Origin: a virus
DNA length: 64,000 nt
Direction: 5' to 3' (one strand)
Virus record (IMG/VR): IMGVR_UViG_3300043788_000023
Coordinates: 96,001 to 160,000 of that record
The notes beneath the pieces were generated by a model that saw only the letters and a program-made list of their open reading frames with translations, was not told where the DNA came from and made no database searches. Positions 33,543 through 45,652 of this stretch are shown here, piece by piece. The position numbers and the translations under genes were made by a program. How positions within the stretch are numbered: the stretch's first letter is position 1; the number at the start of each line of letters is the position of its first letter.

Positions 33543-33627
33543 TGGCTGGGAAGGCAGGATTCTAACCTGCAAGCCTTGCGGCACCAGTTTCAAGGACTGG
33601 CGTGTTTAACAATTCCACCACTTCCCA
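33543..33627 (-). tRNA. Atypical class-II tRNA with UUG (Gln) anticodon and Leu-type body
   Basis: Acceptor UGGGAAG/CUUCCCA-G-CCA; loop CC-UUG-AA; long variable arm GCC-GCAA-GGC. Confidence 0.75.
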
Positions 33628-33633
33628 AGAGAT

Positions 33634-33707
33634 TGGCTGGGAGACTAGGATTCGGACCTAGACTTCTTGGTTCAGAGCCAAGCGTGTTGCCGTTACACTA
33701 TCTCCCA
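33634..33707 (-). tRNA. tRNA-Gln(CUG)
   Basis: Cloverleaf; loop CU-CUG-AA; U1-A72, G73; encoded CCA. Confidence 0.92.
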
Positions 33708-33716
33708 AAAGAAAGT

Positions 33717-33790
33717 TGGCTGGGAGACCTGGATTCGAACCAGGATAGCAGGGTCCAAAGTCCTGCGTCCTACCGTTGGACGATCTCCCA
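33717..33790 (-). tRNA. tRNA-Gln(UUG)
   Basis: Cloverleaf; loop CU-UUG-GA; encoded CCA. Confidence 0.93.
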
Positions 33791-33799
33791 AAAGAAAAT

Positions 33800-33875
33800 T
33801 GGAGCTACCAGAGGGCATCGAACCCCCAACCTCCGCATTACAGGTGCGGCGCTCTGCCAATTGAGCTATGGTAGC
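33800..33875 (-). tRNA. tRNA-Thr(UGU), C33
   Basis: Cloverleaf; loop CC-UGU-AA; U73-CCA. Confidence 0.9.
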
Positions 33876-33884
33876 GAAAATTTT

Positions 33885-34121
33885 TTACTTGCAGCAGCGC
33901 CCGTTCATCGGATGCTGGGCTTCAGGCACCGGGTAGACCGTTGCGCCCTTGTGCTCCTCGCAGGGCCAAACGTGTTCGCTTCCGTCTCGTGCCAACCACT
34001 TGATGCCGTACTGCTCCAGCGGATTGACGACCGCCTCTACCGCCAGTTCCACGTCCCCGATCACGACCTTCTTGCCCATGAGCAGGTTCATCGCCTGCTC
34101 GCCGTTCAACTTGATTTCCAT
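33885..34121 (-). CDS. Small hypothetical protein inside the tRNA operon
   Basis: 78 aa with GGAG RBS, between Thr tRNAs. Confidence 0.6.
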   Translation of the reverse strand: MEIKLNGEQAMNLLMGKKVVIGDVELAVEAVVNPLEQYGIKWLARDGSEHVWPCEEHKGATVYPVPEAQHPMNGRCCK

Positions 34122-34136
34122 TTCATCTCCCGAACT

Positions 34137-34212
34137 TGGAGCTACCGGGTGGATTCGAACCACCGACCTCCCCCTTACCAAGGGGGCATTCTACCAACTG
34201 AACTACGGCAGC
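34137..34212 (-). tRNA. tRNA-Thr(GGU)
   Basis: Cloverleaf; loop UU-GGU-AA. Confidence 0.93.
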
Positions 34213-34223
34213 AAACTTAAACT

Positions 34224-34299
34224 TGGAGCTACCGGAGGGCCTCGAACCCCCGACCTCCGCATTACGGGTGCGGCGCTCTACCAACTGAGCTACGGTAGC
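34224..34299 (-). tRNA. tRNA-Thr(CGU), C33
   Basis: Cloverleaf; loop CC-CGU-AA. Confidence 0.9.
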
Positions 34300-34310
34300 A
34301 CTACAAAAAT

Positions 34311-34385
34311 TGGTACCCATGGAGGGATTCGAACCCCCATAACACGCCTATCGAGCGTGCGTCCTAGCCGTTGGACGACACGGGT
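34311..34385 (-). tRNA. Atypical tRNA-Ile(GAU), C33
   Basis: Acceptor ACCCGUG/CAUGGGU-A-CCA; loop UC-GAU-AG; Gln/Glu-type D arm. Confidence 0.8.
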
Positions 34386-34397
34386 AAAACAAAATCG

Positions 34398-34549
34398 TGG
34401 TGGAGCGTGCGGGATTCGAACCCGCTTCGGTACCAAACGATCTCAAGCCCATCCAGCTTCGGATTTTTGCCCGTCGCCTTCAACTGCTCGCTTGCGATCC
34501 GGGGAGTCGAACCCCGCGTGAGTCGTCGCTCTAGCCTCCAAGCCGCCCC
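34398..34549 (-). ncRNA. 152-nt tRNA-Ala/tmRNA-like RNA with a second T-arm inserted in place of the anticodon loop
   Basis: GGGGCG/CGCUCC-A-CCA (G3:U70, A73); D-like arm; terminal T-arm; internal CGGGG-UUCGACU-CCCCG. Confidence 0.75.
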
Positions 34550-34558
34550 ACAGAAATT

Positions 34559-34634
34559 TGGTAGGCGCGACTGGGATCGAACCAGTGACCTCAGTCTTAT
34601 CAGGACTGCGCTCTGCCAACTGAGCTACGCGCCT
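34559..34634 (-). tRNA. tRNA-Ile(GAU)
   Basis: Canonical cloverleaf; loop CU-GAU-AA. Confidence 0.95.
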
Positions 34635-34647
34635 TCAAAACGTGCCT

Positions 34648-34685
34648 AAAAACAAAAAAGCCGACCACTTGTTGCTTGGTCGGCT
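34648..34685 (-). terminator. Attenuator terminator upstream of the tRNA operon
   Basis: AGCCGACCA/UGGUCGGCU stem plus UUUUUGUUUUU, ~14 nt before tRNA-Ile. Confidence 0.88.
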
Positions 34686-34713: not shown

Positions 34714-34803
34714 TTAGTCTTTGAAGCCCTCAGACACGTCAACGGACCGACCGCATGTAATTCGTTGCGTCGTCGTAGTTCGCGTTGTAGGTGTCTGGTT
34801 CAT
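34714..34803 (-). CDS. Attenuator leader peptide MNQTPTTRTTTTQRITCGRSVDVSEGFKD
   Basis: 29 codons with 8 Thr, 2 Gln and 1 Ile in the first 16; overlaps the antiterminator strand 34736-34752. Confidence 0.82.
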   Translation of the reverse strand: MNQTPTTRTTTTQRITCGRSVDVSEGFKD

Positions 34804-34819: not shown

Positions 34820-34854
34820 TGGCTGGGAGTCTCCGGTTTTACCAAAGACTCCCA
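34820..34854 (-). ncRNA. tRNA acceptor-stem minihelix, Gln-like (G-CCA end)
   Basis: UGGGAGUCU...AGACUCCCA-G-CCA; first 6 bp and discriminator match the tRNA-Gln genes. Confidence 0.7.
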
Positions 34855-34856
34855 AC

Positions 34857-34890
34857 TGGAGCCGAAACTCAGCTTTCGCTAACCTTCGGC
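34857..34890 (-). ncRNA. tRNA acceptor-stem minihelix, Thr-like (U-CCA end)
   Basis: GCCGAAG-G-UUAGC-GAAA-GCUGA-G-UUUCGGC-U-CCA (7+5 bp). Confidence 0.7.
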
Positions 34891-34892
34891 AT

Positions 34893-34926
34893 TGGTGGAG
34901 AACCTCAGATTTCGCTGCGATTCTCC
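34893..34926 (-). ncRNA. tRNA acceptor-stem minihelix (A-CCA end)
   Basis: GGAGAAUC...GGUUCUCC-A-CCA. Confidence 0.65.
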
Positions 34927-34932
34927 GTCTTG

Positions 34933-34964
34933 ATTATATTACTGGAAGTCCAGAAATATGTCAA
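34933..34964 (-). promoter_or_regulatory. Sigma70-type promoter of the minihelix/attenuator/tRNA operon
   Basis: TTGACA-N17-TAATAT, with an overlapping TATAAT. Confidence 0.8.
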
Positions 34965-35296: not shown

Positions 35297-36198
35297 TCAA
35301 GCCTTGATTAGCGGTAGTTCCTCGGGCATGATCCCGAAGGTGTCCCACCAGAACTCGGGCTGTTTGTCCCCGTTGTTCCGAAAATAGCGTCGGCCTTCAC
35401 GCAGGGACTTCTCCATGCGACCACGTTCCCCATCCATCCAGCCCATAAACGAACATTCCACGCCCTGCGGGTTGAGACGCATGAATCGCCGGATCAGGCG
35501 ACGGCAGACGTAGTTCCTGCCCCTGTTGCCCGGCACGATGTCCTGCTCGCGGAACACGCACAGGGTGCGGAAATGGTCGCGGGACACCGGGTCTAGGTCC
35601 TGCCGGAAGAGGCTCGTCTCGTCCACGCGGCTTTTGCCTTCCACGATCTGAAGCATGCGCTCGTAGCCGAAGCCCACGTCCACGGAGTGCCCCATCGGGT
35701 TCACGAGATTGCCTACTTCAAGCCCCTCCGGCGTGAACAGTTCCGAGCAGTAGCCGCCCACGGTGCCGTCCGACCAGACGCAATCCGGGTCGTGGCACAC
35801 GGGGAAGACTCCGTTCCAGTGCCGCTCAAAGCCGGACTCCGGGTGGATGTTTACGTGGGAGATCGGGATGCCGAGGTCGCGGACGATGCCCGTCCACATG
35901 TCGCAGTGCCGCTGGTAGTCGTCCGTGCCGAAGCCGAAGCTACCGACCATCTGGAAGAAGGTCAGGTGCGTGCCGTCGCCGACCTCGTCGATGTCATTGG
36001 TGCGGACGCAGTGCTGGATGTTGCCGTGGCTGGTGCCGTCCGGTGTCTGGAACCTTGGCTTGAGTGGCTGCATCCCCGCGCTGATGAAAAGCGTGGTGGG
36101 GTCGTTCTCGGGGATTATGTTGGTGCTTGGTTCAAAGGGGAGACCGTTCTCGCTGAAGTGGCGTCGAAGGGTCTCGTTTAGGCGTCCCGCTGTGACAT
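35297..36198 (-). CDS. Minimal alanyl-tRNA synthetase-like protein (aminoacylation core only; start is out of frame)
   Basis: [39 protein letters not shown], motif 3 [13 protein letters not shown]...[21 protein letters not shown]; RBS-linked ATG at 36198 is one base out of frame. Confidence 0.82.
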
Positions 36199-42305: not shown

Positions 42306-42390
42306 TGGTACGCGGGGGAGGAATCGAACCTCCGACCTCTCCTCATCAAAAGGGGAGCGCTCTGGTACAACCCAACTGAGCTACCCGCGT
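42306..42390 (-). tRNA. Atypical tRNA, anticodon undetermined (expanded D loop and anticodon arm)
   Basis: Acceptor ACGCGGG/CCCGCGU-A-CCA; normal T arm; anticodon region CUCCCC-UUUUGAU-GAGGAG. Confidence 0.65.
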
Positions 42391-42502: not shown

Positions 42503-42577
42503 TGGCACCCCCGGTGGGATTTTTACCCACATGCGCGGCTTTAGAGGCCACTGCTCTTGCTGTTGAGCTACGGGAGT
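42503..42577 (-). tRNA. Amber-suppressor tRNA(CUA) with degenerate D and T loops
   Basis: ACUCCCG/CGGGGGU-G-CCA; loop CU-CUA-AA; T loop UAAAAAU. Confidence 0.78.
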
Positions 42578-42703
42578 ATGGTGTACGCATCTTATCGCAC
42601 CCACGAGGGCGTAAGGGAGACTTTCTTTCCGGGTGCGCGGCGTACCTGCGATTTTTCCCGTCAGTCGTCTCTGCGAAATATCGTTCGGTGTCTAATACTG
42701 GTG

Positions 42704-42782
42704 TGGTGGGGTCGGCGGGATTTGAACCCGGCGATCAGGGTTTTAGAGACCCCTGCTTTGGGCCAGACTAAGCTACGACCCC
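42704..42782 (-). tRNA. Amber-suppressor tRNA(CUA)
   Basis: GGGGUCG/CGACCCC-A-CCA; loop CU-CUA-AA; T loop UUCAAAU. Confidence 0.85.
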
Positions 42783-44655: not shown

Positions 44656-44817
44656 ATTGTCGGCGCGACGAACGGGAAATCGAACCCGAACTCCATACGG
44701 TGAGGAACCAACCGCCGCTCGCTTCGGCTGACTCATCCGGCTAGATGACGCCTCCACGATTATCGCTATCCGGGGAATTCGAACCCCGCTCTCAGCCACG
44801 AGAGGTCGCCCGACGAT
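44656..44817 (-). ncRNA. ~160-nt structured RNA with two T-arm hairpins (related to 34398..34549)
   Basis: Closing helix GUCGG-GCGAC/GUCGC-G-CCGAC; CGGGG-UUCGAAU-UCCCCG and CGGG-UUCGAUU-UCCCG; own promoter. Confidence 0.68.
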
Positions 44818-44833
44818 AACTCCAACAGTGCAT

Positions 44834-44862
44834 ATTATCTCACAGATCGGCGGCTTTGTCAA
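44834..44862 (-). promoter_or_regulatory. Sigma70-type promoter of the ncRNA/Pth2/HD/suppressor-tRNA operon
   Basis: TTGACA-N17-GATAAT with extended -10 TG. Confidence 0.8.
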
Positions 44863-45361: not shown

Positions 45362-45652
45362 GAATTTTGTGGTGTTGAGGATCAGAGACACCGTCTCTGG
45401 GCACGCAGGTTTTTAAGCTGCGGCTGCCATTGCCATTGCCTTTGGAGCAGTGACGTTTAGTTGTTTCCATCCTGATTTTCGAGGGTATGGTACCTCGGGT
45501 CGCTAGCTCCGTCCTCGCACGTCTTCCGTCGAAACCGATTACCCCCGCAGTGGTGGAGGTAGAGGGAATTGAACCCTCGTCCGAAAAGACTGTCTGGTGC
45601 CTTTTACCCCCACACTTACCCTTCGGCAGTCTACAGGGGCTTACGACCATCT
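45362..45652 (-). ncRNA. ssrA: Circularly permuted (two-piece) tmRNA; tag (A)VTAPKAMAMAAAA*
   Basis: T-arm + UACCUCC-A-CCA (ending 45551) precedes GGGGGUA...GGUUUCGAC (starting 45546); G3:U70; tag ORF 45454-45413. Confidence 0.88.

What the first reader, a model, noticed from the sequence alone, without database searches (positions are those of the whole stretch)
34820..34926. Three tandem ~34-nt NCCA-ended acceptor-stem minihelices upstream of the attenuator: candidate tRNA decoys
Seen: three consecutive hairpins separated by 2 nt, each ending in discriminator + CCA. They are GGAGAAUC...GGUUCUCC-ACCA, GCCGAAG-G-UUAGC-GAAA-GCUGA-G-UUUCGGC-UCCA (7+5 bp, the acceptor/T minihelix geometry) and UGGGAGUCU...AGACUCCCA-GCCA. 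Their discriminators A, U, G follow the order of the downstream tRNA classes (Ile A73, Thr U73, Gln G73). The third copies the UGGGAG/CUCCCA-G acceptor of this phage's tRNA-Gln, and the second shares G1-C72/C2-G71/U73 with its Thr tRNAs. They lie before the terminator, so they would be made constitutively. Established: minihelices are substrates for RNase P, CCA enzyme and some synthetases, and toxSAS/CapRel, MenT and GNAT toxins attack tRNA acceptor ends. Inference: anticodon-less decoys for acceptor-end toxins, or synthetase-titrating RNAs. tRNA scanners would miss them.
Basis: partly seen in the sequence, partly recalled or inferred. Interest (0 to 1): 0.87.

Follow-up and report, generated by a model that had tools for sequence, protein, structure and literature searches.

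The report
Tandem CCA-ended tRNA minihelices in phage
A giant soil phage and its relatives carry one to three conserved 34-base RNA hairpins that copy only the amino-acid-accepting end of a tRNA (12 base pairs plus N-CCA) at the front of a regulated tRNA operon. They probably mimic tRNA ends for enzymes or toxins that read that end, an arrangement I could not find described.

Summary
On the minus strand, three strong hairpins (34926-34893, 34890-34857, 34854-34820) lie 2 nt apart. Each has 12-13 stacked pairs, a GNRA-type loop and an encoded N73-CCA.

They start a few bases after a sigma70-like promoter. They precede a Thr/Gln/Ile-rich leader ORF, an intrinsic terminator and an Ile/Thr/Gln tRNA operon.

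About a dozen metagenomic relatives carry the same module with 0-3 copies. Across 16 distinct hairpins:
- 96% of cells pair, and 9 of 12 pairs show double (compensatory) changes.
- The 12-bp/6-nt register is fixed and CCA is invariant.
- No Rfam family or tRNA finder detects them.

Minihelix 3 keeps U1-A72/G2-C71/G3-C70/G73, the tRNA-Gln set. Minihelix 2 keeps G1-C72/C2-G71/C3-G70 and mostly U73, the tRNA-Thr set, and matches 6/6 a candidate-host Acidobacteriaceae tRNA-Thr. Minihelix 1 (GG../A or G) is unspecific, so the "Ile" label and the fixed order do not hold.

Best reading: tRNA-processing enzymes release anticodon-less acceptor-end mimics that act in trans, for example as decoys for acceptor-stem-reading toxins. 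This is untested. The main rival is a cis-acting RNase P processing or stability module. This scan has noted other tRNA top-half mimics (with T-loops) in other phages.

The parts
34936..34964 (-). Sigma70-like promoter (TTGACA, 17 nt, TAATAT) driving the array, leader and tRNA operon. The predicted start lies a few nt before minihelix 1.
   Evidence: Consensus scan scored 10/12. The same TTGACA-N17-TAnnnT box sits 8-17 nt upstream of the first minihelix in every relative that includes this stretch.
34893..34926 (-). Minihelix 1: 12-layer stem (8 bp, a G/A mismatch, 3 bp), loop CGAAAU, then ACCA. Acceptor end is G1-C72, G2-C71, A3-U70, A73.
   Evidence: Alignment A1 of 7 distinct homologues: 96.4% paired, 6 of 12 pairs with double changes, G1, G2 and CCA invariant.
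34857..34890 (-). Minihelix 2: 7 bp, a G/G mismatch, then 4-5 bp, GAAA loop, then UCCA. Acceptor end is G1-C72, C2-G71, C3-G70, G4-C69, A5-U68, U73, which is tRNA-Thr-like.
   Evidence: Alignment A2 of 5 distinct homologues: 96.7% paired, 5 of 12 pairs with double changes. It matches the candidate-host tRNA-Thr acceptor at 5 bp plus the discriminator, 6/6.
34820..34854 (-). Minihelix 3: 13-14 bp, loop UAAAA, then GCCA. Acceptor end is U1-A72, G2-C71, G3-C70, G73, which is tRNA-Gln-like.
   Evidence: In 9 distinct homologues pairs 2 and 3 are invariant, pair 1 is U-A in 8 and A-U in 1, and pairs 5-8 covary. It shares 6 of 7 bp with this phage's tRNA-Gln acceptor and best-matches only Gln in the candidate host.
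34714..34803 (-). Context: 29-codon leader ORF (MNQTPTTRTTTTQRI...), rich in the Thr, Gln and Ile codons read by the downstream tRNAs. It starts 16 nt after the CCA of minihelix 3.
   Evidence: Read. The ORF is conserved in relatives, but frame-shifted by 1 nt in L139.
34648..34684 (-). Context: intrinsic terminator (GCCGACC..GGUCGGC followed by a U-run) ending the leader. The first tRNA-Ile begins at 34634.
   Evidence: Conserved with compensatory and loop variation in all relatives.
33543..34634 (-). Context: tRNA operon with Ile(GAU), an Ala-identity tRNA-like RNA, Ile-like(GAU), Thr x3 and Gln x3. All have encoded CCA.
   Evidence: ARAGORN and Rfam; sequences.

Best explanation
The three elements are genes for anticodon-less tRNA acceptor-arm mimics.

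Shown:
- Each is a GNRA-capped helix of 12-13 stacked pairs, the length of the acceptor stem plus T stem, ending in an encoded discriminator and CCA.
- They are packed 1-3 nt apart, like this phage's tRNA genes.
- Their structure, length register, CCA and the first 2-3 base pairs are under selection, while the rest of each stem drifts by compensatory change.
- Two of the three classes carry the acceptor identity sets of tRNA-Thr and tRNA-Gln.

Inferred, processing: the host tRNA-maturation machinery treats them as tRNA-like units. RNase P cuts at the 5' side of each helix, guided by the helix and by pairing of RCCA with its L15 loop. That cut also frees the previous unit with a 1-3-nt trailer, which 3' exonucleases trim back to CCA. 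An RNase E-type cut in the A-rich spacer after minihelix 3 separates the array from the leader. The result is discrete RNAs of about 34 nt ending in CCA-OH. They would be made whenever the promoter fires, independently of the attenuator that gates the real tRNAs.

Inferred, function: with no anticodon, D-arm or T-loop they cannot decode. They can only engage factors that read the acceptor end. I think the most likely role is as competing pseudo-substrates (decoys) for acceptor-stem/CCA-reading proteins. The leading candidates are tRNA-end-modifying toxins of host defence systems (toxSAS, MenT/AbiEii-type nucleotidyltransferases, GNAT toxins). The minihelices would complement the attenuator-controlled replacement tRNAs.

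My odds: released by tRNA-processing enzymes about 0.65; trans-acting acceptor-end mimic about 0.45 (the confidence given for this explanation); toxin decoy specifically about 0.25.
For: Structure and selection:
- 16 distinct H1/H2-type units align without gaps. 95.8% of cells pair, 9 of 12 pairs show double changes, and slid controls pair at 33-49%. H3 covaries likewise.
- CCA follows the helix after exactly one nucleotide in all roughly 25 distinct units seen.

tRNA-gene-like layout:
- All 11 tRNA genes of the window encode CCA, and 8 of 11 have U at -1.
- Minihelices H2 and H3 also have U(-1) in the window.
- In L017 a 12-bp, 7-nt-loop, ACCA unit sits 1 nt after a tRNA inside a different tRNA cluster, so it behaves as a free-standing gene-like unit.

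RNase P competence of this design:
- Bacterial RNase P pairs RCCA with GGU in L15, prefers U(-1) and tolerates extensive truncation of the tRNA (PMC4919922).
- Model hairpin substrates of the acceptor plus T stems, also with a GAAA tetraloop in place of the T-loop, are cleaved by E. coli RNase P RNA (PMC3035440).

Trans role rather than cis role:
- Copy number varies from 0 to 3 while the attenuator stays intact (L017 has none).
- U1-A72 with G73 in H3 and GCC with U73 in H2 are kept although RNase P has no need of them. They match Gln and Thr in the clade's tRNAs (UGG/G: Gln 9, Asn 1; GCC/U: Thr 12, Lys 1) and in a candidate-host Acidobacteriaceae MAG.

Decoy plausibility:
- Window H2 has exactly that determinant set. 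The phage's own tRNA-Thr genes (GCUACCG type) do not.
Against: - There are no expression or end-mapping data.
- The array always sits at the 5' end of one transcript, 9-18 nt before the leader start codon. That also fits a cis role.
- A substrate decoy only slows a catalytic toxin unless it is abundant or binds tightly.
- No toxin of the unknown host is identified. The host assignment rests on one 73%-identical gene in a MAG.
- H1-type units, the most widespread class, have no specific identity.
- In L002 the phage tRNA-Thr acceptor (GCCGGGU) is nearly the same as its H2 (GCCGGGG). The pattern of a host-like decoy beside a divergent replacement tRNA is therefore not general.
- With GAAA loops and C(-1)/G73 combinations, E. 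coli RNase P RNA can miscleave model hairpins.
Confidence: 0.45

Rival explanations
1. Cis-acting processing or stability module, comparable to a t-element or tRNA punctuation. The minihelices recruit RNase P and 3' trimming to fix the 5' end of the leader/tRNA precursor. They would remove the 5' triphosphate, leave a base-paired 5' end that resists decay, or separate read-through csp transcripts. The released hairpins would be by-products.
For: - Position is constant: right after the promoter and 9-18 nt before the leader ORF in about 12 variants.
- No terminator was predicted between csp and the array.
- tRNA-like t-elements act as RNase P/Z signals at mRNA ends in plant mitochondria (PMC1920247).
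- Earlier notes of this scan read other phage tRNA top-half mimics this way (unchecked AI notes).
Against: - With its own promoter 8-17 nt upstream there is almost nothing to cut off.
- Three tandem copies are unnecessary for one cut.
- L017 keeps the promoter, leader and terminator without any minihelix.
- L009, L019 and L139 have no csp gene immediately upstream.
- Class-specific terminal pairs (U1-A72/G73; GCC/U73) are conserved without any known benefit for RNase P.
Confidence: 0.27
2. Chargeable or synthetase-binding minihelices. Host ThrRS and GlnRS (or GatCAB), or the phage's own truncated AlaRS-like enzyme encoded about 370 nt upstream, bind or aminoacylate them. This would either titrate synthetases, tuning the charged-tRNA signal that the attenuator reads, or produce aminoacyl-minihelices for another use.
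For: - H2 and H3 carry Thr and Gln acceptor identity pairs (identity sets in PMC9976931).
- Minihelices are charged by several synthetases (PMC9976931).
- A catalytic-core-only AlaRS (N. equitans AlaRS-alpha) alanylates hairpins that need only A73 and CCA, independently of G3:U70 (PMC11392972).
- H1-type units are mostly GGG../A73, one (L010) even has G3-U70, and the 258-aa AlaRS-like gene is syntenic in the window, L002, L015, L016 and L019.
[quoted passage not shown] I saw only the title.
Against: - GlnRS and ThrRS depend strongly on the anticodon; kcat losses reach 10^4-10^5.
- Phage islands with the AlaRS-like gene but no attenuator (L018, L021) and bacterial homologues (L020, L141) have no minihelices nearby.
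- A dedicated Ala-identity tRNA-like RNA and a tmRNA already exist as likely substrates.
- The synteny is clade-wide and so is not independent evidence.
Confidence: 0.12
3. Promoter-proximal hairpins that act on the transcription complex or bind a phage protein, in the manner of nut/boxB or put. They would modify RNA polymerase so that it reads through or pauses before the downstream terminator.
For: They lie between promoter and terminator. The loops are GNRA-like or GAAAA-like, reminiscent of boxB (my own knowledge, not tested).
Against: - Conservation lies in the helix ends and CCA. Loop sequences vary: GAAA, GCAA, GAGA, UAAAA and a 7-nt loop.
- Stems are 12-14 bp rather than about 5.
- There is no Rfam match.
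- One unit lies inside a tRNA cluster far from any terminator.
- This reading gives no reason for an invariant single-stranded NCCA.
Confidence: 0.04
4. Decaying remnants of tRNA genes, or chance hairpins.
For: H3 shares 6 of 7 acceptor pairs with the phage's tRNA-Gln.
Against: - Compensatory substitutions, a fixed 12-bp register and invariant CCA across about 25 distinct units.
- The three units are paralogous to each other in their inner stems and loops, not to T-arms.
- None of the background hairpin+NCCA hits listed lie in tandem.
Confidence: 0.02

Closest known systems
Synthetic acceptor-TPsiC minihelices and RNase P model hairpins (Schimmel-type minihelices; Kirsebom's pATSer substrates)
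   Same: A 12-bp coaxial helix ending in N73-CCA. Some pATSer versions even have a GAAA tetraloop in place of the T-loop. Such RNAs are cleaved by bacterial RNase P RNA (PMC3035440), charged by several synthetases (PMC9976931) and modified by the toxSAS FaRel2 (PMC11559606).
   Different: Those are laboratory constructs. Here the design is genomically encoded, tandemly arrayed, evolutionarily maintained and placed ahead of a tRNA-operon attenuator in a phage.
t-elements of plant mitochondria and tRNA punctuation
   Same: tRNA-like partial structures inside longer transcripts that are thought to direct RNase P/RNase Z cleavage (PMC1920247).
   Different: t-elements keep T-arm features, are single, lack encoded CCA and mark mRNA ends. 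The present units have GNRA loops and encoded CCA, come in arrays at a transcript's 5' end, and carry class-specific acceptor identity pairs.
Phage regulatory RNAs matured by RNase P (C4 antisense RNA of P1/P7)
   Same: Small phage non-tRNA RNAs that are RNase P substrates (listed in PMC4919922, ref. 206).
   Different: As far as I recall, C4 acts by antisense pairing through its loops. The minihelix loops are tiny generic GNRA caps and their conservation lies at the acceptor end.
tRNA-like domains that are aminoacylated (tmRNA TLD; plant-virus TLS) and tRNA-like small RNAs (mascRNA)
   Same: Mimicry of the tRNA acceptor/T half with a CCA end that is used by host tRNA enzymes.
   Different: Those retain a T-loop/elbow and larger architectures. 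None is a bare 34-nt GNRA-capped helix and none forms tandem arrays. Rfam models for them do not hit here.
Phage-encoded tRNAs that bypass tRNA-targeting defences (PARIS, retrons)
   Same: A phage counter-measure built from tRNA-like RNA. It is discussed as the selective force on acceptor-stem-reading toxins in PMC11559606.
   Different: Those are complete decoding tRNAs that replace depleted host tRNAs. The minihelices cannot decode and could only compete for the toxin.
'tRNA top-half mimics' noted earlier in this scan in other phages (e.g. e1-1239721, e1-5262354)
   Same: Unannotated acceptor-arm-only tRNA look-alikes in phage transcripts, sometimes just before start codons.
   Different: Those are described as 40-55-nt units with a T-arm/T-loop and were read as cutting signals after genes. 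I did not check them. The present units are 34 nt and GNRA-capped, all have encoded CCA, are tandem, and carry identity-like acceptor ends.

Membership tests
Canonical tRNA (Rfam RF00005) | Cloverleaf with D-arm, anticodon arm and T-arm; detected by tRNA models | tested here: not met
   ARAGORN finds 11 tRNAs in the window but nothing at 34820-34926. Rfam at E<=1 gives no hit there or on the homologous units. Each unit is a single hairpin.
Acceptor-TPsiC minihelix (geometry) | About 12 stacked base pairs (7 acceptor + 5 T-stem) followed by a single-stranded discriminator and CCA | tested here: met
   H1 and H2 types have 12 layers and a 6-nt loop in 16 of 16 distinct units, with NCCA directly after the helix. 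H3 has 12-14 pairs.
Acceptor-TPsiC minihelix (T-loop) | 7-nt T-loop (UUCRANY) capping the helix | tested here: not met
   Loops are GAAA, GCAA, GAGA, (C)GAAA(U) or UAAAA. Only the L017 unit has a 7-nt loop, and it is UUAGUAG.
Bacterial RNase P substrate | Acceptor-like helix, 3' RCCA able to pair with L15, favourable N(-1) (U preferred) | tested here: met
   The sequence features are present. NCCA is invariant. N(-1) is U for H2 and H3 and C for H1 in the window. Requirements are taken from PMC4919922 and PMC3035440.
Bacterial RNase P substrate | Actual cleavage at +1 by RNase P | not testable with these tools
   Needs an in vitro or in vivo assay. The read-mapping route was unavailable.
tRNA-Gln acceptor identity (H3) | Pairs 1-72 and 3-70 and the discriminator (PMC9976931); U1-A72, G2-C71, G3-C70, G73 as recalled for E. 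coli | tested here: met
   U-A in 8 of 9, G-C in 9 of 9, G-C in 9 of 9, and G73 in all. UGG/G occurs in Gln (9) and Asn (1) among 130 clade tRNAs. H3 best-matches only Gln in the candidate host. Anticodon determinants are absent by construction.
tRNA-Thr acceptor identity (H2) | G1-C72, C2-G71 (with U73 in this lineage) | tested here: met
   G1-C72 and C2-G71 in 6 of 6. U73 in 4 of 6 and A73 in 2. GCC/U occurs in Thr (12) and Lys (1). The window's H2 matches the candidate-host tRNA-Thr 6/6.
tRNA-Ile acceptor identity (H1) | A73 plus C4-G69 (E. coli set, PMC9976931) and resemblance to the phage or host tRNA-Ile acceptor | tested here: inconclusive
   The window's H1 is GGAG../A (G4-C69). Most relatives are GGGC../A, and two have G73. 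The phage tRNA-Ile is AGG/A or ACC/A. The candidate-host tRNA-Ile is GGGCCUG/A, but Lys, Val, Met and Arg share GGGC/A.
tRNA-Ala identity / AlaRS substrate | G3-U70 wobble pair with A73 | tested here: not met
   Pair 3-70 in H1-type units is G-C, A-U or C-G. G-U occurs in only one (L010) of 16.
FaRel2-type toxSAS substrate | G1-C72, C2-G71, G4-C69, Pu5-Py68 plus 3' CCA (PMC11559606) | tested here: met
   The sequence determinants are present in H2 of the window, L002 and L010 and in L016 Ha, but not in L009 or L011, which have U4-A69. Modification itself is not testable here.
nut/boxB- or put-type antitermination RNA | Short stem with a conserved GNRA-like pentaloop bound by N (plus boxA), or the put two-hairpin fold | tested here: not met
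   Stems are 12-14 bp, loops vary, and conservation is at the helix ends and CCA. There is no Rfam hit. I did not search for boxA.

The most novel reading that the evidence does not exclude
The array is an RNA counter-defence: class-specific acceptor-end decoys. One unit is tRNA-Thr-like, one is tRNA-Gln-like and one is generic GGGC/A-like. They are made constitutively and soak up host toxins that read the first five acceptor base pairs plus CCA (toxSAS such as FaRel2/CapRel, MenT/AbiEii nucleotidyltransferases, GNAT acetyltransferases). The attenuator downstream senses the resulting Thr/Gln/Ile decoding failure and switches on replacement tRNAs. The result would be a two-tier, RNA-only system of shield and spare parts.
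Probability: 0.22. Interest if true: 0.92.

Novelty: new variant of a known kind. Interest (0 to 1): 0.76.

Why it matters
RNA minihelices have been laboratory models for more than 30 years, used to study how synthetases, RNase P, the CCA enzyme, EF-Tu and, recently, antiphage toxins read the tRNA acceptor end. Here nature appears to encode the same minimal object, in tandem copies and under clear purifying selection. Two copies are dressed as tRNA-Thr and tRNA-Gln, and the array is wired in front of a sensor for Thr/Gln/Ile decoding.

If the RNAs are released and act in trans, they would be a new class of phage small RNA: acceptor-end mimics. They would also add a new logic for countering tRNA-targeting immunity, decoys in addition to replacement tRNAs.

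Even the conservative reading is useful. RNase P-guided processing modules made of GNRA-capped CCA hairpins would add an unannotated, tRNA-scanner-invisible element to phage tRNA islands. That gives a simple search pattern (12 bp + GNRA + NCCA, tandem) for finding more.

Tried and rejected
- Similarity searches of the INPHARED phage collection with the region and with a neighbouring 565-aa protein found only csp-gene matches or nothing.
- The search for related loci with the 565-aa oxidase found nothing.
- An exact leader 25-mer found only one IMG/VR contig. A 20-mer in the metagenomes gave 9 true relatives and 2 chance hits, L012 and L013.
After filtering for hairpins, none was a true new array.
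- Rfam at permissive thresholds gave nothing on any minihelix.
- Single-protein patterns for the AlaRS-like gene found nothing in genome contigs. The alignment-based scan did.
- Pfam on 19 neighbouring ORFs found no toxin-counteracting enzyme such as an alarmone hydrolase next to the array.
- The paper PMC394483 (Hipps & Schimmel 1995) is not held, so I cite only its title.

Ideas considered and dropped:
- That H3 co-evolves with the phage's own tRNA-Gln acceptor. L002 and L016 contradict it.
- That the phage tRNAs always differ from the decoy acceptor. L002 tRNA-Thr contradicts it.
- That NCCA pairs with a UGGN element in the leader, as in a T-box. I saw no conserved partner on reading the alignment.
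- That the hairpins terminate the csp gene. They have no U-tract.
Full report
**1. What is there**

All genes of the window lie on the minus strand. The window is bases 96001-160000 of a 169.6-kb IMG/VR virus record that is estimated to be 54% complete.

Read on the minus strand, the order is as follows:
- A 258-aa protein related to the AlaRS catalytic domain (36073-35297; Pfam tRNA-synt_2c, E = 1.8e-16).
- A cold-shock protein gene (35185-34984).
- A promoter, TTGACA-17-TAATAT (34964-34936).
- The three hairpins (34926-34820).
- A 29-codon ORF rich in Thr, Gln and Ile codons (34803-34714).
- An intrinsic terminator (34684-34648).
- The operon: tRNA-Ile, an Ala-identity tRNA-like RNA, a second Ile-like tRNA, three tRNA-Thr and three tRNA-Gln.

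The folding program forms them as three independent helices (z = -7.15 for the whole leader). Each helix is followed by one unpaired nucleotide and CCA. The units are separated by AU and GU.

All 11 tRNA genes of the window also encode their CCA. Eight of the 11 have U at position -1.

**2. Is it more than chance?**

Yes.
- A scan of the phage's whole record for hairpins of 11-14 layers followed by NCCA finds these three. Otherwise it finds only weak, G-U-rich hairpins inside genes. CCA is not enriched after hairpins in general (14 of 720).
- In 117 unrelated viral loci (1.83 Mb counting both strands) I found 73 scattered hairpin+NCCA cases. None of those listed lie in tandem.

The decisive evidence is comparative. 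The leader downstream is nearly invariant, and a 20-mer from it retrieved nine metagenomic relatives. The neighbouring AlaRS-like protein retrieved more.

The arrays found:

| Locus | Array before the leader |
|---|---|
| L005, L014, L015 | As in the window; L015 has a variant H3 |
| L011 | New H2 |
| L002 (= L006) | All three units different |
| L009, L010 | All three units different |
| L007 | H1 and H3 only, joined by GU |
| L008 | H1 and H3, with a GAAUUCA remnant between them |
| L004 | H1 and H3, with a roughly 105-nt branched insert in place of H2 |
| L016 | Three units of different sequence and order |
| L139 | Two GGG/A-type units |
| L019 | One unit |
| L017 | None; it has a 12-bp, 7-nt-loop, ACCA unit 1 nt after a tRNA in another tRNA cluster |

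Covariation is strong.
- For H1 (7 distinct sequences), 96.4% of cells pair and 6 of 12 pairs show changes on both sides.
- For H2 (5 sequences), 96.7% pair and 5 of 12 pairs show double changes.
- For 16 distinct H1/H2-type units aligned without a single gap, 95.8% pair, against 33-49% when the partner is slid. Nine of 12 pairs have double changes, and no shuffle of 500 reaches the covariation score.
- H3 covaries at pairs 1 and 5-8.

CCA is invariant in every unit. The frequent G-U pairs fix the RNA to the minus strand.

**3. Anatomy that is conserved**

- Helix length is conserved: 12 layers in the H1 and H2 types and 12-14 pairs in H3. That is the length of the acceptor stem stacked on the T stem.
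- The cap is a stable GNRA-type loop (GAAA, GCAA, GAGA), not a T-loop. The loops vary within GNRA, so the loop is probably a structural cap and not a recognition site.
- The single-stranded NCCA is conserved.
- The first two or three base pairs are conserved and class-specific: G-C, G-C in H1; G-C, C-G, C-G in H2; U-A, G-C, G-C in H3. The middle of each stem drifts by compensatory change.
- The inner stems and loops of the three units resemble each other (AGCGAAA.CUGAG), so they are paralogues and not shrunken copies of T-arms.
- Neither ARAGORN nor any Rfam model sees them.

**4. Whose acceptor ends do they copy?**

I tabulated the first three acceptor nucleotides plus the discriminator of 130 tRNAs from the phage clade.
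- UGG/G is Gln (9) or Asn (1).
- GCC/U is Thr (12) or Lys (1).
- GGG/A is spread over Ala, Val, Ile, Lys, Tyr and suppressor tRNAs.
- The phage tRNA-Ile genes are AGG/A or ACC/A.

A host clue came from the AlaRS-like gene. A 73%-identical copy lies in bacterial-looking context on a 202-kb contig of an Acidobacteriaceae MAG. More distant copies lie in Planctomycetota.

The chromosomal-type tRNAs of that MAG have these acceptors, all with encoded CCA:
- Thr: GCCGACG/U and GCCGAUG/U.
- Gln: UGGGCCG/G.
- Ile: GGGCCUG/A.
- Lys, Val, Met and one Arg: also GGGC./A.

Scored over five pairs plus the discriminator:
- The window's H2 matches tRNA-Thr 6/6.
- The six UGGG-type H3 variants scored best-match Gln alone. 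L016 Hc ties between Gln and Pro.
- H1-type units match the GGGC/A group without specificity. The window's own H1 (GGAGAAU/A) matches nothing well.

The claimed order and discriminator pattern is not general:
- H1 has G73 in L002 and L009.
- H2 has A73 in L010, as does the GC-type first unit of L016.
- L016 has the GC-type unit first.
- L019 and L139 have only GGG/A units.

H3 also does not track the phage's own tRNA-Gln. L002 has UGCC/UGCG tRNAs beside a UGGGGGC minihelix.

**5. How it most likely works**

*Established from the literature*
- Bacterial RNase P pairs the 3' RCCA with GGU of its L15 loop, prefers U(-1), and tolerates extensive truncation of the tRNA. Non-tRNA substrates include pre-4.5S RNA and phage regulatory RNAs (PMC4919922).
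- In E. coli, RNase E cuts 1-3 nt after encoded CCA and exonucleases finish the 3' end (PMC2190699 abstract).

*Inferred*
- The array is processed like a string of tRNAs into RNAs of about 34 nt ending in CCA.
- These are made whenever the promoter fires, because they precede the terminator.

*Arguments that they act in trans rather than only as a cutting signal*
- Copy number ranges from 0 to 3 while the leader and terminator are unchanged.
- The array has its own promoter only 8-17 nt upstream, so there is nothing to cut off.
- One unit sits as a free-standing gene inside another tRNA cluster (L017).
- U1-A72/G73 and GCC/U73 are conserved although RNase P does not need them.

*What could read such an RNA*

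Only acceptor-end readers could. [quoted passage not shown]

The window's H2 carries exactly the FaRel2 determinant set (G1-C72, C2-G71, G4-C69, A5-U68). The phage's own tRNA-Thr genes (GCUACCG type) do not.

This makes the decoy reading concrete, but it remains unproven. No host toxin is known. A competing substrate only slows a catalytic toxin. In L002 the phage tRNA-Thr resembles its H2.

*My odds*
- Released by tRNA-processing enzymes: about 0.65.
- Trans-acting acceptor-end mimic: about 0.45.
- Toxin decoy specifically: about 0.2-0.25.
- Cis-acting processing or stability module: about 0.27.
- Synthetase ligand or substrate, including the neighbouring AlaRS-like enzyme: about 0.12.
- Transcription-complex hairpins: about 0.04.
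- Remnants or chance: about 0.02.

The AlaRS-like link has one precedent. The AlaRS-alpha fragment of N. equitans charges hairpins that need only A73 and CCA (PMC11392972).

**6. Comparison with what is known**

Functionally the units look like the laboratory minihelices and RNase P model hairpins. In genomic role they are nearest to t-elements (PMC1920247) and to RNase P-matured phage small RNAs (C4; ref. 206 in PMC4919922).

They fail membership of the tRNA family (no cloverleaf) and of T-loop-bearing tRNA-like domains. They do not carry the Ala G3-U70 mark, except for one unit in L010.

Full-text searches for natural minihelix arrays or acceptor-stem decoys in phages found nothing.

Earlier notes of this scan report many tRNA top-half mimics in other phages, read as punctuation signals. 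As described there, those have T-arms, are single and follow genes. I did not verify them. The present elements differ: they are GNRA-capped, have encoded CCA, are tandem, and mimic particular tRNA classes.

**7. Verdict**

- I rate it a new variant of a known kind (tRNA-like RNAs and RNase P-substrate RNAs) and of high interest. It offers a directly testable link between tRNA-end-targeting immunity and phage RNA mimicry.
- The function remains inferred.

Noticed in passing
window 34714-34803 (-), and L139:3044-3120: The leader ORF (MNQTPTTRTTTTQRI...) uses the codons read by the operon's tRNAs. GGUCGGU inside it can mimic the terminator's 3' arm, giving an antiterminator. In L139 a 1-nt difference shifts the conserved AACGCGAACUAC block out of the Thr-rich frame. 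Part of the conservation may therefore be at the RNA level, or that contig has an indel.
   Followed up: partly
window 34398-34549 (-): A 152-nt tRNA-like RNA inside the operon. It has a GGGGCG../..CGCUCC acceptor with G3-U70 and A73-CCA, two T-arm-like hairpins and no normal anticodon arm. Rfam gives only a weak tmRNA hit (23.8 bits).
   Followed up: partly
window 35297-36073 (-): A 258-aa AlaRS-like protein aligns to AlaRS residues of about 67-334 with internal deletions. It lacks the N-terminal motif-1 region, the editing domain and the C-Ala domain. More than 300 homologues of about 258 aa exist, in jumbo-phage tRNA islands and also in Acidobacteriaceae (73% identity) and Planctomycetota (about 50%) genomes.
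   Followed up: partly
window 42503-42782 (-); also L002, L015-L019, L140: Two or more tRNAs with anticodon CUA (amber suppressors, labelled 'Pyl' by ARAGORN) are conserved across the clade, next to odd tRNAs with irregular anticodon loops. This suggests TAG read-through or recoding in this phage group.
   Followed up: no
window 45413-45611 (-): A phage-encoded permuted (two-piece) tmRNA (Rfam tmRNA_permuted, 70.6 bits; ARAGORN tag VTAPKAMAMAAAA). It is also present in L002, L016, L017 and L019.
   Followed up: no
L004:399-508 (-) and L008:91-99: In L004 minihelix 2 is replaced by a roughly 105-nt branched structured RNA closed by a 10-bp stem and ending in AAUUCA, not CCA. L008 keeps only the remnant GAAUUCA. 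There is no Rfam match.
   Followed up: partly
window 44670-44850 (-): After a promoter-like TTGACA..GATAAT lie two T-arm-like hairpins (GGGGUUCGAAUUCCCC and GGGUUCGAUUUCCC). Rfam gives a weak mascRNA-like hit at 44764-44821 (E = 0.18). These may be further tRNA-like non-coding RNAs.
   Followed up: no
L187 (G001:C53:314604-317676) and G001:C44:239700-240620: The Acidobacteriaceae MAG used as candidate host carries two dense tRNA arrays of about 20 and about 10 genes. Their acceptor stems differ from its scattered chromosomal tRNAs, so the arrays may belong to a mobile element or prophage.
   Followed up: no
L017:7850-7923: A tRNA-like gene with an irregular anticodon loop (ARAGORN reports a 2-nt 'anticodon') lies directly upstream of the solitary ACCA minihelix. 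It is homologous to the odd 'Glu(ctc)' gene at window 42306-42390.
   Followed up: no
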